DNA of 64,000 nt, from assembly GCF_003704095.1 (NCBI RefSeq), contig NW_020843646.1, positions 1 to 64,000 on the forward strand. Reading direction: 5' to 3'. Shown here piece by piece: positions 30,001 to 60,000 of this stretch. Position numbers: made by a program. Within the stretch, counting starts at the first letter, position 1, and each line of letters opens with the position of its first letter. This DNA comes from Pocillopora damicornis. Lineage: Eukaryota.

Positions 30001-33000
30001 CTGGGAAATTGAATGCAAGTTTCAAATTTTGCGGATTTTGCTTGATCTGCAAATATGGGTACACGCTGAAAAAAATACGCAGTGGAATATAACGCCGCAA
30101 AAAAATCATTCTTAGTCCAATACAAAAGTCGAGGGAAATAACGCGGATAAGAGGTTATTCATTCAGTATTCTGATTTCTTTGTCAAATATTTTGCGAAGT
30201 GGTTGTTTACCTTCCTAGATTATCCAGAATTCAGTTAACTTTCCAAAAAAACGTTCCGCGAATCTTAAAATCTCCAATTTGCGATATGAAATTACTGCAA
30301 AGCTAAGCAGCTTTTTCAGCCTTTCCACATGTTTTCCATTTATGTTTTCCCTTTATGTTTTCCCTCTTGGAACAATAGCAATACTGTGTGCTTTGTCTGT
30401 AAGAGATTTTAGCACATGTACGACATCTTTGTGCCTGATTATTTATCTTGTAGCTGTGTCAGTGCGATTGTAAAACTGTGAGTTTTAGATGGCGTTGTCA
30501 GATCGGCCATGTCGTGTCGACGACTGACTGAGACGTATAACAAAGTCCTTTATTCCATTTGCAATAATAAGAACTGAGATTTAACCGGTAGGTTAGACAA
30601 TGTTATGCAGGGTGTTTGGGCCTTTTAATTTAACAAAAAAAATAGACCGTTGTCGAAGATTTGAAGTCTGTAAATAAAAAATGCATTTTAAATTTGCGCG
30701 TTGAAAAAAATCAACGGAGTTGAGTCGAAAGAAAGTGACTCATTTTATGAAAATTATTTGTGTAATTCGTGTTCACAACTTAAATCTGTTGTTAGCATTT
30801 TATTCTATTTCCGCCAGCTAAGGAAATATAATGTGGCTTAATATTGATTCCGCATAATGCTAATGAGTTTTAATGTATTCCGCAGTCTTGTGTTACAAGT
30901 CATCATGAGGTGTTTCCGTCTGGAAATAACACTAAAGGTGTGGTATAAAAGAATTTGATATTTCCGGGTAGAACTTTGAATACTTCACGCGCGTGAGATA
31001 GTCCACGTTAGTCACGCACTTAAAATTCGTGACGCTCTCTTTAAAGAAAAACAAAGAAAGGGTGCATTCACAAGTACCCAAGTTTAATTGTAGCAAAAGA
31101 CACGAGCGTGCACCGAATTGAAGAGGCCTCGTCGCAGTGGGAACGGAGATTAATTAGATCGTGAAAAGATGGTTAATCAGCATGTTTCTTATGTTATTAA
31201 GGTGAACTGGAACTACTGCCACAAGTTTAAATAAGAACCTCCAGGGCATTGTTGATCATGGATAACTCCCTGACAGTTTGGTCGTTTTTTTCGCTGTTTT
31301 GGCTTTCAGGTAAGCCAGGGTGTTATAACTCTCAAAACATATTTTTATATATAAGAATCAGTTTTTTCCTTTTACTCACTTTTTATTCTCTCTCATTTTT
31401 CGAAGAATCTCTGTCTTGGACCATTAAACAGCCCGACAGTGTATACAGAGGATCACCGATCACACTGGAATGGACAATATCACTAACAAAAGAAGAAAAG
31501 AAAAGAGCCGATCGCTTTTCTTTGATTCTCTTGGAACGTGAGAAGTTTCTATATAGCAATCAGTGGCAGATCATGGCTGTTAAACAATATTATAATGGTA
31601 TTTATCAGGAAATCGATGATGAGGACACTTTTGATGTGATTCCTGGAAAGGACATGGCGCTCAAATTGAACAATGTTACTGACACTGATGCTTCTCGATT
31701 TCGCTGCACATTTCTGAGCTCATTTGCTTCTCCGAAGAGTATCATTGAGGTAGAAATAGAAGGTGAGTCCCTGTCGTTTGTGGACGTCTCTATTCTTTAG
31801 ATGTAATACGTAATCTTTTAGGCGCATCCCTGACCTTCTGGGAAGGCATATCACAATTTCAACGTGTCTCTGAATTTACCCAGCGGTTTATCTGGTTCCA
31901 GGAAGCTAACATCAGCACTGCTTTTCAAGGAACATTTGCATAATGTTTGTCTGTGGAGTACGTTCAATATGTATAGTCAGCCAGTGGAAATCTCCAAGCG
32001 TCAATAACCTGCCCTGCACCATCATTTTCCAACAGGGCAGCGGAGTACTCTGTACACTTTTAATAAGGGATGATACTTATGTTATTTCTTTTTTGTTTTA
32101 GATTCTCCGGTATACGTACGTCTTATGGACGGAACTACTCCCAATAAAGGCCGAGTAGAAGTGTACCGAAATGGATTTTGGGGCACCATCTGTAGAGACG
32201 GTTGGGATATCCTGGATGCCTCAGTTGTTTGTCGGATGTTGGGTTATGCGGGAGCCTGGAAAGCTGGCTGTTGTGAGGATTATCGGGGAGGGACTGGTCC
32301 AGTGTGGCTAAGTGAAATTTCATGTACAGGAAGAGAGAAGTCTCTATTAGAATGTGATCACAGTGGTTGGGGTGTCAATAACTGTGATCATAGAAAAGAT
32401 GCTGAGATCGTATGTTACAGTCCACCGACAGAAAAACCGTCGCACTATGTCAGTTTAAAAATCGTGTCAACAAGAACACAGAAATCTCTTTTCTCTAGTA
32501 CAAAAGCAGTTACATCCACAACGGCTCAGTCCATTTTGACACAGGTGTCCCCACCAACACCCTTCAGCCCAACATCAATAGAATTCCAGAAATCGTCAAC
32601 CCACACTGTTCGTGTAACAGAAGCTATAGTAGTATCTCCAAGTTCATCGTCATTGGCCGTCATGTCCAGCTCTGTTATTGCCCCCTTAAATCCCAGTAAG
32701 TAGCCTCCAGTCATATTTGCAGCCTGTTAACAATTGTTGATATGCAATCACTGTCCAAGGCTTTGGCATGATTATAGACGTTCAGGTGTGTTAGCATTCT
32801 GTTGTCAGATGTGGCGATCAAGTTCTGTTTAATTAAACTCGGCTCCCGATTAGAAAAGTAATTAAGACTGAGATCAATCAGGAACTTCTATAGGTGTGTG
32901 CTTAGTGTAGAGATTAACGTCTAGAAAGCACATTTTTCAAACCCATTTGAAGATGATAGGATACAAAAGAACGTTTTTAGGCAGACACTCACCATGCAGT

Positions 33001-57000: not shown

Positions 57001-60000
57001 AAGACATGGCCAAGTGTCAGTTAACCATTTTGTAAAGTATGGTGTCTTTATTCTGTAAAGTTCGAAAGAAAAAAAAAGAAATCATCGGCGGGGAAGATGT
57101 CCTAGAGTTTAACTGGCTATCACGCGCCCGTAAACTACACAGGTTTTCGCAGAACGGACGGCTTTTAAGCCGGTTGAGGAAGTAGAAAACGAGTTATTAT
57201 GAATAACACGTTAGCTTTGAGTCCGCAATGACGTTACTGGCTTGAGGAAATGGGACTTGGTTTTTAGCTCGATAGGTGATCAGTGTGACTGTATGTACTT
57301 TTTTTTCCTCGAAAACTACTGCTTTTGCTTTCTTTGTTTTTTCTCACCAAATATTGAGTAATATATCATGAAAACGATTAGGGGAAGAAGGTAATTTTTT
57401 TTAGAATGTCGGTTCGATACTACCTGTCAGTCGAAAGTAGTACGAATAATTTCTCCTAGGTTCACACTCTGAAGGAAATTTCCAAAACTCTAGGAATACG
57501 TTATTGCTTGAATGTGTAATTACTGATACATTAAACCTGTAAACAAATCCTAACGCTGCGTCGTAGTCGTTGGTTCAATATCTAAAACTGACATACAGTA
57601 CTTTGTAAAAACATTACATTAATTTTTGGGTTTAATTTGCAATTAATCTCTTATAGTTGCTGACGCAAAAGTGTGGTCTCTTGAAAACGTATCGAAGTCA
57701 CATAAGAATCGAGTTTCATCATTAGGTTTGACGTAAATATAAGGCCGCAACAAGCTTACTCACACATTCTAAATTCTAGAGAGCTAGCAAGGAAGGTTAC
57801 TGTAGGTAAATTCAAAAAACATTTTCATAGCTTTGAGTGTTTCTCTGTAGGTCGGGGTTGTTTACTTTTCGTGTAAGTTGAGGTTTTCAGGAGAAATTCT
57901 TAAGATATTTGGTTCGAACTTCCTCATCGAATTTTTCGGTTTCTCTATTGAAATTTAGACAAAACTTGCACTGCGCGGTAGAAAAATTCAGTTTATCTCT
58001 ATGTAAGCACCTGTGAAGTGTTTCTTTATTTTGTTACTCACTTAAGTTGGCCCTATTGCTGTAACATCAATATTTTCGCTTTTCTCCGTCACCCGTAAAC
58101 GAGACAATTTCTTACACCATCTCGGAGAATTAAGTAATGAAAACAGTGGAAGTAAAACTTATCCCTTGAAGAATTACATTTCCTTATGTTTCATCCCTCT
58201 GAGTTACTCTTTGTGAAGCTTCATGACTTTACGAACGTTTTGCTTGAACATGACAATTTCATAGCTGATTAAAAATCTTTCACATACGCAAGATAATAGC
58301 GAGCGATACCAATTTGCCTTACCACTGGTGTACGCATTTGCTTGAATTCTGAGCGTAAGCTCCAACTAATTTCATAAACGTCTTGCGATTCATATGGAAA
58401 TTCTCTTTCCATTCCTCTTCAGCAACCCTACCAGTAACAAAGTTTTCCCACCATCCATTGCAAAATCCGGGCTAAACAAAATAATCTTGCAGGAGAAGAG
58501 GGTTTATTGCTGAAAATTACACCATTTACCCTCGTACATCGGTTTAATTTCGCACGACCGAACAGCCTAGAAAAAGGCGTTGATGACACATCTCATAACC
58601 TTTGAAACCTATCCGATAAGTAATAATTCCCTTTCAAGATCCACGCGGCGCAGCTCCGGTCCGTTACAACAACTAACCCGGAATCAGCGTGAAAAATTAT
58701 TTGCCAAAAGCTATCAAGTTTATCTTTCTATCTATGAATCTCATTTGATTTGAGTCGTTAAGTCTGAAAGAAGGATCCATCCTTTATGAGGATTTCATAA
58801 TGTCCAAACGCCAAAAATACACAAATTCAGGATGCAATCATTTCGTAAGGAAAAACGCCACTAGTGGGCCAAACGACATTTCCAATAGGAACATACTGAA
58901 GGGACAAGTTTTGTATGGATTATTTCGCCGTCCACTTTCTATAGGGACAGCCAGGTTACACAGACGGGTACCTAGGGATTTAAAAAAAGGCACTTTATGA
59001 AAAGCAGCCTATTCGTGAATTTATACGAACGGCAAAACTCTGTGAAAAGTCTTTTTCCAAAACGTTCCAAAATAAGGGAATGTCACCGTCTAGTTCACCG
59101 CAGACTGTTTGACATTAATAACGCCTGAATTAAAATGTCAAACATTGATTAGAGTCAGAAAAACCCCCCCTTAAAACCCGAGGAGGAAGTATCAAGTAAC
59201 AGTCTGTCTATAACCTCTGCGGATAGAAAGCAAAACGATATCACAACGAACTCATAATTATTTCATTTTGGACGGCGTATAAAGGAAGCCGCTCAGATGG
59301 CGGTCGTCAAACCTGTTAGGTTTTGCATGTTGCAGAATATGTACCGTTGTGTCTCTTTTTGGTTGAGTTTGGCAGCGCTGTGTCCGTCAGTATCAGGTGA
59401 GTGCTCCAGTACCACTGGCACCATGAACTTTGGAATCTTCACTAACAAATAATGAAAGGCCTCTAACAAGAACTCTTTTTCCTTTTTCAGCGATCCACTG
59501 GATAAAAAAACCTCCTGGAAACGTTAAAGGAATACTCGGCGAGAACGTTACACTTGAGTGGAATTTTACCATGTCATCCGCCAACGAAACTTTGGACTAT
59601 TTTGTTTTGTTGCGATCCATGCGATATGATATGATTAAATATAGTCACGGCAAGGGCGAAGTGATATATAAACCCTACGAGGGTAGAGTGGACATTTTGG
59701 TCGATGGAACCCCGAAATTTGTCTTATTCAATCTACAAAGAGAGGACGACAAAGTTGAGTTTTGCTTGAAAGTCTCCACAAAGAGTACAACAAATGGTGG
59801 TGGGCAGATTCATTATCCTGACCCCGAATGTGCTAAAATTGAATTATTGGGTAAGGTTTGTTTGTATCCTCTCCAATAAAACGAATCGCACGTGTAAATT
59901 TACTTACTAATTGTTTTTTCTTCCTTGTGCTGTCTAAATAATACTGTAAAATGGAATTTACTTCTTCATTGGATCGAAAGGAGATATCGTGCACACAAAA

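What the first reader, a model, noticed from the sequence alone, without database searches (positions are those of the whole stretch)
31406..59850. Atypical V-Ig cores: B-strand Cys replaced by Trp in G3, G4 and G5
The B strand reads ITLEW, ATLEW or VTLEW where G2 has VSLPC, and the C-strand Trp is also lost. G3 and G4 keep a single unpaired Cys (FRC). G5 has Cys in the F and G strands (EFCL..PECA), a possible non-canonical bond. Hydractinia Alr allorecognition proteins are known for N-terminal V-like domains with non-canonical core residues; my recollection that they share this B-strand Trp needs verification. A canonical relative (G2) next door would capture the transition.
[Added by the scan's program, not by the reader: the finding's places include an assembly gap (unread letters, written N; its length is only estimated) at 35462 to 35824, 47926 to 48025. 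Whether the letters on both sides are continuous or in frame is not known: test that first.]
Basis: partly seen in the sequence, partly recalled or inferred. Interest (0 to 1): 0.72.

Follow-up and report, generated by a model that had tools for sequence, protein, structure and literature searches.

The report
Coral V-type Ig domains without disulfide
Three neighbouring coral genes start with an antibody-like (V-type) domain in which the usual core disulfide and tryptophan are replaced by bulky hydrophobic residues, much as in the self-recognition proteins of the hydroid Hydractinia, but kinship with those proteins could not be tested.

Summary
The window is scleractinian coral DNA; G4 matches a named Pocillopora damicornis protein.

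- **Exons.** Four phase 1-1 exons each encode a ~118-residue N-terminal domain: G2 (28715-29074, -), G3 (31406-31762, +), G4 (54800-55156, -) and G5 (59491-59850, +).
- **Core residues.** G2 has the canonical Cys/Trp/Cys. G3 and G4 have Trp (TGG) at the B-strand Cys site, Leu or Val at the family's C-strand Trp site, and one orphan F-strand Cys. G5 has the B-strand Trp plus a conserved Cys pair in strands F and G. Its F-strand Cys probably sits one residue before the canonical site, which is Leu.
- **Fold.** AlphaFold2 models are confident (pLDDT 94 and 87). Foldseek returns V-type Ig domains for both.
- **Conservation.** The Trp is conserved in orthologues from several coral genera. dN/dS between G3 and G4 is about 0.2.
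- **Family.** Intermediates with both Trp residues exist. One change at the B site explains the tree.
- **Gene context.** G3 and G4 are secreted V-SRCR-MAM-Ig-trypsin proteases. G5 is a membrane Ig/Fn3 protein.
- **Alr link.** Huene et al. 2022 report the same substitution pattern in Alr domain 1. Homology to Alr was untestable here, and G3/G4 differ in architecture.
- **Gaps.** The assembly gaps lie far from the V-like exons.

The parts
28715..29074 (-). G2 V-set exon (phase 1-1), canonical core. Cys26 codon TGC at 28995-28997, Trp46 codon TGG at 28935-28937, F-strand Cys at 28770-28772.
   Evidence: Pfam V-set 23.4 bits, below the cut-off of 26. Orthologues P0024 and P0025 score 43.3 and 65 bits.
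29249..29309 (-). G2 signal-peptide exon, followed by a GC-AG intron.
   Evidence: Sequence read. Orthologue P0024 reads ILLEGFQW across the junction.
26709..27032 (-). G2 second Ig exon.
   Evidence: Pfam Ig_2 5.5e-14 and Ig_3 1.7e-13.
31258..31309 (+). G3 signal-peptide exon (ATG 31258, phase 1 donor GTAAGC). Intron 1 is 31310-31405.
31406..31762 (+). G3 V-like exon. Trp22 TGG at 31471-31473, Leu42 TTG at 31531-31533, orphan Cys100 TGC at 31705-31707.
   Evidence: AlphaFold2 pLDDT 94, pTM 0.85. Foldseek V domains TMq 0.72-0.75. No Pfam Ig hit.
32074..41579 (+). G3 downstream exons: SRCR x2, MAM, Ig x7, trypsin domain (TAAHC, DIAL and GDSGGP present).
35462..35824 (.). Assembly gap inside G3. 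It hides the 3' end of Ig exon 'a' and was not filled.
44466..54464 (-). G4 downstream exons: SRCR x6, MAM, Ig x5 (one truncated by the gap), trypsin domain.
   Evidence: P0006 maps exon by exon at 96-100% identity. Pfam scan of P0006.
47926..48025 (.). Assembly gap inside G4. About 50 codons of Ig exon 'c' are missing. Not filled.
54800..55156 (-). G4 V-like exon. Trp22 TGG at 55089-55091, Val42 GTG at 55029-55031, orphan Cys100 TGC at 54855-54857.
   Evidence: Identical to P0006 residues 20-137.
56671..56715 (-). Start of the G4 signal-peptide exon (first 15 codons of P0006).
59297..59396 (+). G5 signal-peptide exon (phase 1).
   Evidence: Orthologues begin MAVAK...CMLQN.
59491..59850 (+). 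G5 V-like exon. Trp23 at 59559-59561, Leu39 at 59607-59609, Phe90-Cys91-Leu92 at 59760-59768, Cys113 at 59829-59831.
   Evidence: AlphaFold2 pLDDT 87, pTM 0.80. Foldseek CRIg, nectin, TIGIT and PILR V domains.
61215..63869 (+). G5 downstream Ig exons (at least 3). The gene runs off the window.

Best explanation
G2 to G5 are real, expressed-type coral genes. Each has as its first mature exon a V-set-fold immunoglobulin-superfamily domain from one small family that has so far been named only in stony corals.

In most of this family the canonical 'pin' (Cys23-Cys104 disulfide packed on Trp41) has been given up.
- The B-strand Cys became Trp, a single-base step from TGC/TGT to TGG.
- In several lineages the C-strand Trp then became Leu, Val, Ile or Phe (TGG to TTG in G3).
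- In G3 and G4 the F-strand Cys stays as an orphan.
- In G5 the canonical F-strand position is Leu. A new Cys pair on the outward face of strands F and G probably forms an intra-sheet disulfide.

Shown: the residues, their conservation, purifying selection, and the predicted V-set fold.

Inferred:
- The B-strand Trp fills the core space left by the disulfide.
- Cys100 is a buried free thiol.
- C91 and C113 are bonded.
- The direction of change was Cys to Trp.

Function (inferred from position and architecture): the domain is the N-terminal binding head of two secreted mosaic serine proteases (G3 and G4: V-like, SRCR, MAM, Ig, trypsin) and of a type I membrane Ig/Fn3 adhesion-type protein (G5). 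The resemblance to Hydractinia Alr domain 1 and to CD2/SLAM-family V domains is a resemblance of core design. Family membership is not established.
For: Motifs and exon structure:
- All four V-like exons are phase 1-1 with AG/GT borders, each preceded by a signal-peptide exon.

Homology within the window:
- G3 vs G4 is 69% identical. G2 vs G3 and G4 is 31%.
- The G5-family profile against the G3-family profile gives hhalign probability 90.8%, E 1.2e-6.

Fold:
- AlphaFold2 gives pLDDT 94.0 and pTM 0.85 for G3, and 87.0 and 0.80 for G5, with 9-10 strands. Trp22, Leu42 and Cys100 lie inside the predicted B, C and F strands.
- Foldseek against the PDB gives at least 500 matches at E <= 0.001 for each model. 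The listed top matches are V-type Ig domains with TMq up to 0.75.
- The Atlas feature search puts both domains nearest cnidarian clusters and V-set families.

Conservation:
- Named orthologues with TLEW or TLAW plus RF(Y)RC come from Oculina patagonica, Pocillopora damicornis and Montipora capricornis.
- G5-type relatives come from P. verrucosa, P. meandrina, Stylophora pistillata and Desmophyllum pertusum.
- W23, C91 and C113 are invariant in 9 of 9 G5-family sequences.
- dN/dS between G3 and G4 is 0.19-0.21.

Family states in 46 aligned rows:
- WLC 17, CWC 12, WWC 6, WVC 3, WIC 3, and one each of CFC, LWC, WFC, AWC and CSC.
- The fewest changes on the tree are 1 at the B site and 4 at the C-strand site. 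It is still 1 at the B site when the G5 family is added.

Codons.

G5 F-strand register:
- HMMER alignment to the SLAMF6 V domain (E 0.004) and hhalign both put F90 at the Tyr-corner site, C91 at position 103 and L92 at position 104.
- Four of 9 family members read FCC or YCC, so they still have Cys at 104.

Architecture.
Against: - No model coordinates were available. Packing of Trp22 against Leu42 and Cys100, the free-thiol state of Cys100, and the C91-C113 distance were not measured.
- Pfam finds no Ig family in the G3, G4 or G5 domain. G2 itself is below the V-set cut-off.
- MAFFT aligns G5 C91 with G3 C100, the canonical site, with canonical L-x3-D-x3-X-x-C spacing. The register shift therefore rests on two profile alignments and on hydrophobic periodicity.
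- A gapless alignment of G2 to CAR D1 puts CAR's canonical Trp at family column 38, not 42. I take column 42 as the pin Trp because it is invariant in Cys-type members and sits in a W-x-R motif. This is an inference.
- The trees are unrooted in effect. The outgroup branch is 9.8 changes per column, and one search is midpoint-rooted. Cys to Trp is assumed from what is usual in the superfamily.
- The 32-row non-Cys split has only 62/94.7 support.
- The rows are not independent. Several are near-identical.
Confidence: 0.7

Rival explanations
1. The G2-G5 cluster is the anthozoan counterpart of the Hydractinia allorecognition complex. On this reading the pin-less V-like domains are true homologues of Alr domain 1 and act in self/non-self recognition by variant-specific binding.
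For: - The core substitution pattern matches that reported for Alr domain 1: aromatic at the B-strand Cys site, hydrophobic at Trp41, and Tyr102 to Phe in 20 of 29 (PMC9546547).
- By the profile alignments, G5 also lacks Cys104 and keeps the Arg-Asp pair (R65, D86).
- Four adjacent genes start with this domain type.
- G5 relatives are type I membrane proteins with Ig, Fn3 and TM regions.
- Corals show allorecognition, as stated in PMC9546547.
Against: - G3 and G4 keep the F-strand Cys that 29 of 29 Alr domain 1 sequences lack.
- G3 and G4 are secreted proteases without a membrane anchor. P0006 ends in the trypsin domain.
- All 43 database rows with full-length domain matches to the G2/G3/G4 profile keep this Cys. 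Of those rows, 32 came from the search of 1.84 billion representatives and 11 from the search. No Alr-like, Cys-free sequence was therefore detectable.
- The nearest database representatives are 97-99% identical to the window's domains, and one 90%-identity cluster holds 219 sequences. This does not suggest hypervariability.
- The G5-family Fn3 matches Pfam fn3. According to the paper, the Alr Fn3-like fold does not.
Confidence: 0.07
2. The direction is the reverse. The ancestor of this coral family already had Trp at the B site with the orphan F-strand Cys. The 'canonical' G2-type regained the disulfide by a single TGG to TGC/TGT change.
For: - With the G5 family included and midpoint rooting, the Cys-type rows form one clade (SH-aLRT 90) nested among Trp-type lineages.
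- The F-strand Cys is invariant in all 46 rows, so one base change would restore the pair.
Against: - The root is not inferred. The tree is a quick LG+G4 tree with long-branch warnings.
- The Cys-type also has the C-strand Trp and Tyr at the corner, like the superfamily at large (established knowledge).
- The careful tree rooted on a CAR-like row places Cys-type rows at the base, but on a very long outgroup branch.
Confidence: 0.12
3. The orphan Cys100 of G3 and G4 is not buried. It forms an inter-domain or inter-chain disulfide, for example with one of the two extra, vicinal Cys of the first SRCR domain. On this reading Trp22 is an interface residue, not a core plug.
For: - Cys100 is invariant in all 46 rows, including all 32 non-Cys rows.
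- The SRCR domain next to the V-like domain has 8 Cys including a CC pair, against 6 in G3's other SRCR. The pair is also seen in Oculina and Montipora.
Against: - Cys100 occupies the canonical inward-facing F-strand site. F98, C100 and F102 alternate with R97, R99 and T101.
- It lies mid-strand in the model.
- Eight Cys can pair among themselves.
Confidence: 0.08
4. The domains are decaying relics (pseudo-exons or mis-predicted ORFs) and the substitutions are damage.
For: Pfam does not recognise them.
Against: - dN/dS is about 0.2.
- The phase 1-1 splice sites are intact.
- The domains are conserved across coral genera and are present in annotated full-length proteins.
- The fold predictions are confident.
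Confidence: 0.02

Closest known systems
Hydractinia symbiolongicarpus Alr family, domain 1 (Huene et al. 2022, PMC9546547)
   Same: - Cnidarian N-terminal V-set-fold domain that standard profiles miss.
- B-strand Cys replaced by an aromatic residue (Trp, Phe or Tyr) and Trp41 by a hydrophobic residue.
- Tyr corner often Phe.
- Non-canonical intra-sheet disulfides elsewhere in the proteins.
- Genes clustered.
   Different: - G3 and G4 keep Cys104.
- G3 and G4 are secreted SRCR-MAM-Ig-trypsin proteases.
- G5 has about 12 canonical Ig domains and a Pfam-recognisable Fn3.
- No hypervariability was seen.
- Sequence or profile similarity was untested, because no Alr sequence was available here.
CD2/SLAM-family N-terminal V domains (e.g. 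SLAMF6/NTB-A 2if7, CD48 2edo)
   Same: - V-set domain without the B-F disulfide, at the membrane-distal tip of an adhesion-type receptor.
- SLAMF6 is the best PDB sequence match of the G5-family profile (E 0.004). Its Leu aligns to G5 Trp23 and its Ala to G5 Leu92.
- CD48 appears among the Foldseek matches.
   Different: - SLAMF6 keeps the C-strand Trp.
- It has no F-G Cys pair.
- It is a vertebrate family, and the match is weak.
Anthozoan trypsin-SRCR / trypsin-MAM mosaic proteases (Babonis et al. 2019, PMC6767649); vertebrate neurotrypsin
   Same: - G3 and G4 have SRCR repeats, MAM and a C-terminal trypsin domain with the catalytic motifs.
- UniRef names P0006 'Neurotrypsin'.
- The paper reports SRCR and MAM as over-represented trypsin partners, with expansion of the trypsin-MAM clade in anthozoans.
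   Different: - No kringle in P0006 at E <= 1e-4.
- There are 5-7 Ig domains and an N-terminal pin-less V-like domain. The passages read do not mention either.
CAR (coxsackievirus-adenovirus receptor) D1
   Same: Best PDB sequence match of canonical G2 (E 0.07), with the shared motif LPC-x-[FY]-x-L-[ST]-P-[EQ]-[DE]-Q.
   Different: - The match is not significant.
- CAR has the full pin.
- The register of the C strand differs by four residues.

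Membership tests
IgSF V-set domain (structural class; Pfam PF07686) | Two-sheet sandwich with the extra C'/C'' strands; closest structures are V domains | tested here: met
   AlphaFold2 gives pLDDT 94 (G3) and 87 (G5) with 9-10 strands. Foldseek PDB top matches are nanobody/VH, aggrecan G1, CRIg, nectin D1, TIGIT and PILR, with TMq 0.72-0.75.
IgSF V-set domain (structural class; Pfam PF07686) | Score above the Pfam V-set gathering cut-off (26 bits) | tested here: not met
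   G3, G4 and G5 have no Ig-family hit at E <= 1 except Izumo-Ig at E 0.02-0.06. G2 scores 23.4 bits. G2 orthologues P0024 (43.3 bits) and P0025 (65 bits) pass.
IgSF V-set domain (structural class; Pfam PF07686) | Pin: Cys23-Cys104 disulfide packed on Trp41 | tested here: not met
   G3 reads W/L/C and G4 reads W/V/C. G5 reads W/L/L by the profile alignments, or W/polar/C by MAFFT. G2 reads C/W/C.
IgSF V-set domain (structural class; Pfam PF07686) | Gly16, hydrophobic 89, Asp98 and aromatic 102 | tested here: met
   Read from the sequences by spacing from the F-strand site. G3 has G15, L85, D94 and F98. G5 has G16, F76, D86 and F90. Arg75 is Thr in G3 and Arg65 in G5.
Hydractinia Alr family (domain 1) | Both canonical Cys absent (29 of 29 in Huene et al.) | tested here: not met
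   G3 and G4 keep Cys100 at the canonical F-strand site. G5 meets this feature only under the profile-alignment register.
Hydractinia Alr family (domain 1) | Aromatic residue at the B-strand Cys site and hydrophobic residue at Trp41 | tested here: met
   Trp in G3, G4 and G5. Leu, Val and Leu respectively at the C-strand site. Paper passages read.
Hydractinia Alr family (domain 1) | Detectable sequence or profile similarity to Alr domain 1 | not testable with these tools
   No Alr sequence could be fetched.
Hydractinia Alr family (domain 1) | Receptor architecture: V-set, I-set, Fn3-like fold, TM, tail with ITAM/ITIM | tested here: not met
   G3 and G4 are V-like, SRCR, MAM, Ig and trypsin with no TM. 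G5 relatives have about 12 Ig, a Pfam fn3, a TM and a short tail. ITAM/ITIM motifs were not examined.
Hydractinia Alr family (domain 1) | High allelic polymorphism of domain 1 | tested here: inconclusive
   Only cluster representatives were seen: 97-99% identical to G3, G4 and G5, and 96% to G2. Cluster members could not be listed.
CD2/SLAM-family V domain | Significant sequence similarity to family members | tested here: inconclusive
   G5-family profile vs SLAMF6 gives E 0.004 over 92 residues, and vs CD48 gives E 0.02.
Neurotrypsin (PRSS12) | Kringle + SRCR repeats + trypsin domain | tested here: not met
   P0006 has SRCR x6, MAM, Ig and trypsin. No kringle at E <= 1e-4.
Chymotrypsin-fold serine protease (Pfam Trypsin) | Trypsin domain with His, Asp and Ser motifs | tested here: met
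   Pfam Trypsin E 2.3e-43 and 1.4e-13 for the G3 exons. TAAHC, DIAL and GDSGGP are present in both genes.

The most novel reading that the evidence does not exclude
Pin-less V-set domains with an aromatic residue in place of the B-strand Cys are an old cnidarian invention, shared by anthozoans and hydrozoans. On this reading Hydractinia Alr domain 1 descends from the same lineage as the coral G3/G4/G5 domains. The Pocillopora G2-G5 cluster would then be a coral recognition locus. It still holds the canonical form, and the wider family holds the intermediates (Cys/Trp/Cys, then Trp/Trp/Cys, then Trp/Leu/Cys, then Trp/Leu/Leu).
Probability: 0.08. Interest if true: 0.85.

Novelty: new variant of a known kind. 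Interest (0 to 1): 0.5.

Why it matters
Huene et al. 2022 wrote that they knew of no V-set or I-set domain lacking both the disulfide and the core Trp other than the Alr domains (passage read). The coral domains here are a second such case, from the other cnidarian branch.

They come with three useful features.
- A canonical paralogue sits 2 kb away from G3.
- Living intermediates exist in the same family.
- The mutational steps are single-base changes.

This makes the question of how an Ig core survives loss of its pin directly testable by back-mutation and stability measurements. It also offers a starting point for asking whether Alr-type domains exist outside Hydractinia.

There is a practical point as well. 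Pfam-based annotation misses these domains, so IgSF counts in coral genomes are underestimates.

Tried and rejected
- **Pfam on the four domain exons.** No Ig hit for G3, G4 or G5, so Pfam was no help for classification.
- **The listing of cluster members for ten divergent relatives.** The taxa of P0016-P0079 therefore stay unknown.
- **MAFFT placement of G5 Cys91 on the canonical Cys column.** Considered and set aside in favour of the one-residue offset. That offset is given by hhalign, by HMMER against SLAMF6, and by the in/out pattern (F90, L92 and V94 hydrophobic; C91, K93 and K97 polar).
- **Gapless G2-CAR alignment putting the canonical Trp at family column 38.** Set aside because column 38 is variable, while column 42 is invariant Trp in Cys-type members and sits in a W-x-R motif.
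- **Careful mixture-model tree including the G5 family.** Killed by the sandbox limit. It was replaced by a quick LG+G4 tree, which is weaker.
- **Literature searches for a described coral pin-less V-set domain or coral Alr-like genes.** Nothing relevant beyond the Hydractinia papers. Only search listings were seen for the other titles.
- **Spliced models.** Every query from the window was a single exon or a stop-to-stop ORF. Whole-protein architecture comes from database proteins P0003, P0006, P0011 and P0012.

Full report
**What the window is.** The window has about 37% G+C and is intron-rich. The G4 V-like domain is identical to residues 20-137 of a named protein, pdam_00019992 of Pocillopora damicornis (P0006). 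The downstream G4 exons map to P0006 at 96-100% identity. Other named relatives are from Oculina patagonica, Montipora capricornis, Pocillopora verrucosa, P. meandrina, Stylophora pistillata and Desmophyllum pertusum. The window is therefore stony-coral DNA, not human.

**Handling of spliced models.** Whole-protein architectures come from database proteins.

**The observation.** All the motifs are at the stated places.
- Each motif lies in a phase 1-1 exon of 357-360 nt with AG and GT borders. Each exon is preceded by a short signal-peptide exon.
- The exons are G2 28715-29074 (-), G3 31406-31762 (+), G4 54800-55156 (-) and G5 59491-59850 (+).
- G3 and G4 contain one Cys each (Cys100, in RFRC). 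G5 contains two (Cys91 in EFCL, Cys113 in PECA). G2 contains the usual two.
- A second ATLEW at 51191-51205 (-) lies beyond the exon that P0006 maps to and is a chance match.

**The gaps.**
- The gap at 35462-35824 begins five codons after the F-strand Cys of a downstream Ig exon of G3.
- The gap at 47926-48025 removes about 50 codons of a downstream Ig exon of G4. Only 34-40 residues of that domain remain.
- Exon order and strand on both sides of each gap are collinear with the Oculina protein P0003, which comes from a different assembly. I see no sign of a misjoin.
- Frame across the gaps cannot be established, and I did not fill them.
- Neither gap is within 3.6 kb of a V-like exon, so the observation does not depend on them.

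**Gene context.**
- G3 (+) reads V-like, SRCR x2, MAM, Ig x7, trypsin. G4 (-) reads V-like, SRCR x6, MAM, Ig x5, trypsin. Both have the TAAHC, DIAL and GDSGGP motifs.
- P0006 ends in the trypsin domain (residue 1760 of 1772). Together with the signal peptide, this indicates secreted proteases.
- G2 (-) is a V-set plus Ig gene. Its orthologues have a TM helix and a cytoplasmic tail.
- G5 (+) is V-like plus Ig exons and runs off the window. Its relatives are 792-1388-residue proteins. Those scanned or read to the C-terminus show about 12 Ig domains and a Pfam fn3 (P0012), then a TM helix and a short tail.
- G2 and G3 are head to head, as are G4 and G5. G3 and G4 are tail to tail.

**Is it a V-set fold?** Pfam does not see an Ig domain in G3, G4 or G5, and G2 is just below the V-set cut-off. 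G2 orthologues pass it, and G2 is clearly homologous to G3 and G4.
- AlphaFold2 with a 30-sequence alignment gives G3 pLDDT 94.0 and pTM 0.85. With a 9-sequence alignment it gives G5 87.0 and 0.80.
- Foldseek against the PDB returns V-type Ig domains. G3 matches nanobody/VH domains and aggrecan G1. G5 matches CRIg/VSIG4, nectin-1 D1, TIGIT, PILR and CD48. TMq reaches 0.75.
- In the G3 model, Trp22, Leu42 and Cys100 lie inside the B (18-25), C (39-45) and F (97-103) strands. A helix (28-36) fills the B-C connection.
- The tool gives no coordinates, so side-chain packing is inferred and not measured.

**The family.** A profile of G3, G4 and G2 searched against 1.84 billion representatives found only 64 proteins at E <= 0.001.

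Among the 79 proteins then held, a local HMM search gave 71 domain matches. I kept the 43 that covered at least 96 of the 118 profile positions and dropped the other 28 partial matches and fragments.

With the three window domains added, the 46 rows have these states at the B, C-strand and F sites:

| State (B / C / F) | Rows |
|---|---|
| W L C | 17 |
| C W C | 12 |
| W W C | 6 |
| W V C | 3 |
| W I C | 3 |
| C F C | 1 |
| L W C | 1 |
| W F C | 1 |
| A W C | 1 |
| C S C | 1 |

- The CSC row is a CAR-like outlier in a multi-Ig protein.
- The rows include near-duplicates, so these are not independent counts.
- The F-strand Cys is present in all 46 rows.
- On the careful tree, the fewest changes are 1 at the B site and 4 at the C-strand site. 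The 32 non-Cys rows form one side of a branch with support 62/94.7.
- The family therefore contains the canonical form, forms with Trp at both sites, and forms like G3 and G4 where the C-strand Trp is gone. The C-strand Trp was lost more than once.
- The codons fit single-base steps. G2 has Cys TGC and Trp TGG. G3 has Trp TGG and Leu42 TTG. G4 has Val42 GTG.
- dN/dS between the G3 and G4 V-like exons is 0.19-0.21.

**G5.** Its family has 16 relatives found, of which 9 were aligned.
- W23, F37, L39, C91 and C113 are invariant in 9 of 9.
- The family profile matches the G3-family profile with hhalign probability 90.8%, E 1.2e-6.
- Its best PDB sequence match is the disulfide-less V domain of SLAMF6 (E 0.004).
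- Both profile alignments put Phe90 on the Tyr-corner site, Cys91 on position 103 and Leu92 on the canonical Cys104 site. MAFFT instead stacks Cys91 on the canonical Cys.
- I favour the profile register. Phe90, Leu92 and Val94 are hydrophobic and conserved, whereas Cys91, Lys93 and Lys97 alternate with them. In strand G, Cys113, Lys115 and Glu117 have the polar parity.
- Four of the 9 family members read FCC or YCC, so they still have Cys at 104.
- On this reading G5 has lost all three pin residues. Its two conserved Cys face outward on neighbouring antiparallel strands, which is suited to an intra-sheet disulfide. This is an inference.
- With the G5 family added, the B site still needs only one change on a quick tree of 54 rows. 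The root is unknown, so the direction Cys to Trp rests on what is usual for the superfamily.

**Comparison with Alr.** From Huene et al. 2022 (PMC9546547) I read only the passages returned by two term searches. They state the following.
- All Alr domain 1 sequences lack both Cys, and only two keep the Trp.
- The B-strand Cys is replaced by Trp, Phe or Tyr. Trp41 and Cys104 are replaced by hydrophobic residues.
- Tyr102 is Phe in 20 of 29.
- The salt bridge is present in 26 of 29.
- The authors knew of no other V-set or I-set domain lacking both the disulfide and the Trp.

Membership is another matter.
- G3 and G4 keep Cys104 and are proteases.
- No Cys-free sequence appeared among the full-length matches to the coral profile.
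- The nearest representatives are 97-99% identical to the window's domains.
- No Alr sequence could be obtained for a profile comparison. Supplements, which may hold the Alr alignment, are closed.

The Hydractinia genome paper (PMC11067881, passages read) mentions Alr-like genes only within Hydractinia. Babonis et al. 2019 (PMC6767649, passages read) report SRCR and MAM among the domains over-represented with trypsin in Nematostella, and expansion of the trypsin-MAM clade in anthozoans. That fits the G3/G4 backbone. Five literature searches found no description of a coral pin-less V-set domain. For the other titles I saw only the listings.

**Verdict.** The fold assignment is supported. The link to Alr is a shared core design whose homology is open.

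I rate it a new variant of a known kind, namely disulfide-less V-set domains as in Alr and the CD2/SLAM family. It is of moderate interest for three reasons.
- It extends the Alr-type core to anthozoans.
- It offers a canonical neighbour and natural intermediates for experiments.
- It shows a blind spot in profile-based annotation.

Noticed in passing
window 69-16925 (+): A further gene (G1) has at least 19 Ig-domain exons and looks hemicentin-like. Its start lies outside the window.
   Followed up: partly
window 39402-40196 (-): Two adjoining ORFs (161 and 102 aa) lie inside the G3 intron between the last Ig exon and the first trypsin exon. From recall they look like the tail of a retroelement polymerase. 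Pfam gives no hit at E <= 0.001.
   Followed up: partly
window 29243-29248 (-): G2 intron 1 appears to use a GC donor (GCAAGT). The junction reading ILL-E-GFQW is matched by orthologue P0024.
   Followed up: partly
window 31310-31405 (+): G3 intron 1 is 96 nt, in frame and free of stops. Naive ORF callers therefore read through it, as the database protein P0001 does.
   Followed up: yes
window 32074-32703 (+) and 53661-54464 (-): The SRCR domain next to the V-like domain has 8 Cys, including a vicinal CC pair (AGCC). G3's other SRCR exon (33135-33551) has 6. The pair is also present in Oculina and Montipora.
   Followed up: no
window 50549-53457 (-): G4 has six SRCR exons against two in G3. 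Its SRCR 2/4 and 3/5 match the same two segments of Oculina P0003, which themselves occur twice. A two-SRCR unit was therefore duplicated in tandem.
   Followed up: partly
window 40273-41579 (+) and 44466-45456 (-): The protease domains carry TAAHC, DIAL and GDSGGP. The activation site reads PQ|IVGG in G3 and PQ|IVAG in G4, not R|IVGG. The residue six before the catalytic Ser is Gly, not Asp, so specificity and activation are probably not trypsin-like (inference).
   Followed up: no
G3 domain residues 4 and 53 (window 31417-31419, 31564-31566): Two further Trp residues are conserved. Trp4 (strand A) is present in all four window domains. Trp53 (start of C') is invariant in 30 of 30 rows of alignment A3. 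They may be part of the altered core.
   Followed up: no
P0024, P0025, P0056 (G2 orthologues): The cytoplasmic tails of P0024 and P0025 carry a conserved Y-L-N-G motif after the TM helix; P0056 has the TM helix but no such motif in the stretch read. G2 may therefore be a signalling receptor.
   Followed up: no
P0049 (668 aa, unnamed source): A relative with Trp at the B site and Phe at the C-strand site has V-like, MAM and Ig domains but no SRCR or trypsin in the model. The V-like exon has therefore been combined with several backbones.
   Followed up: no
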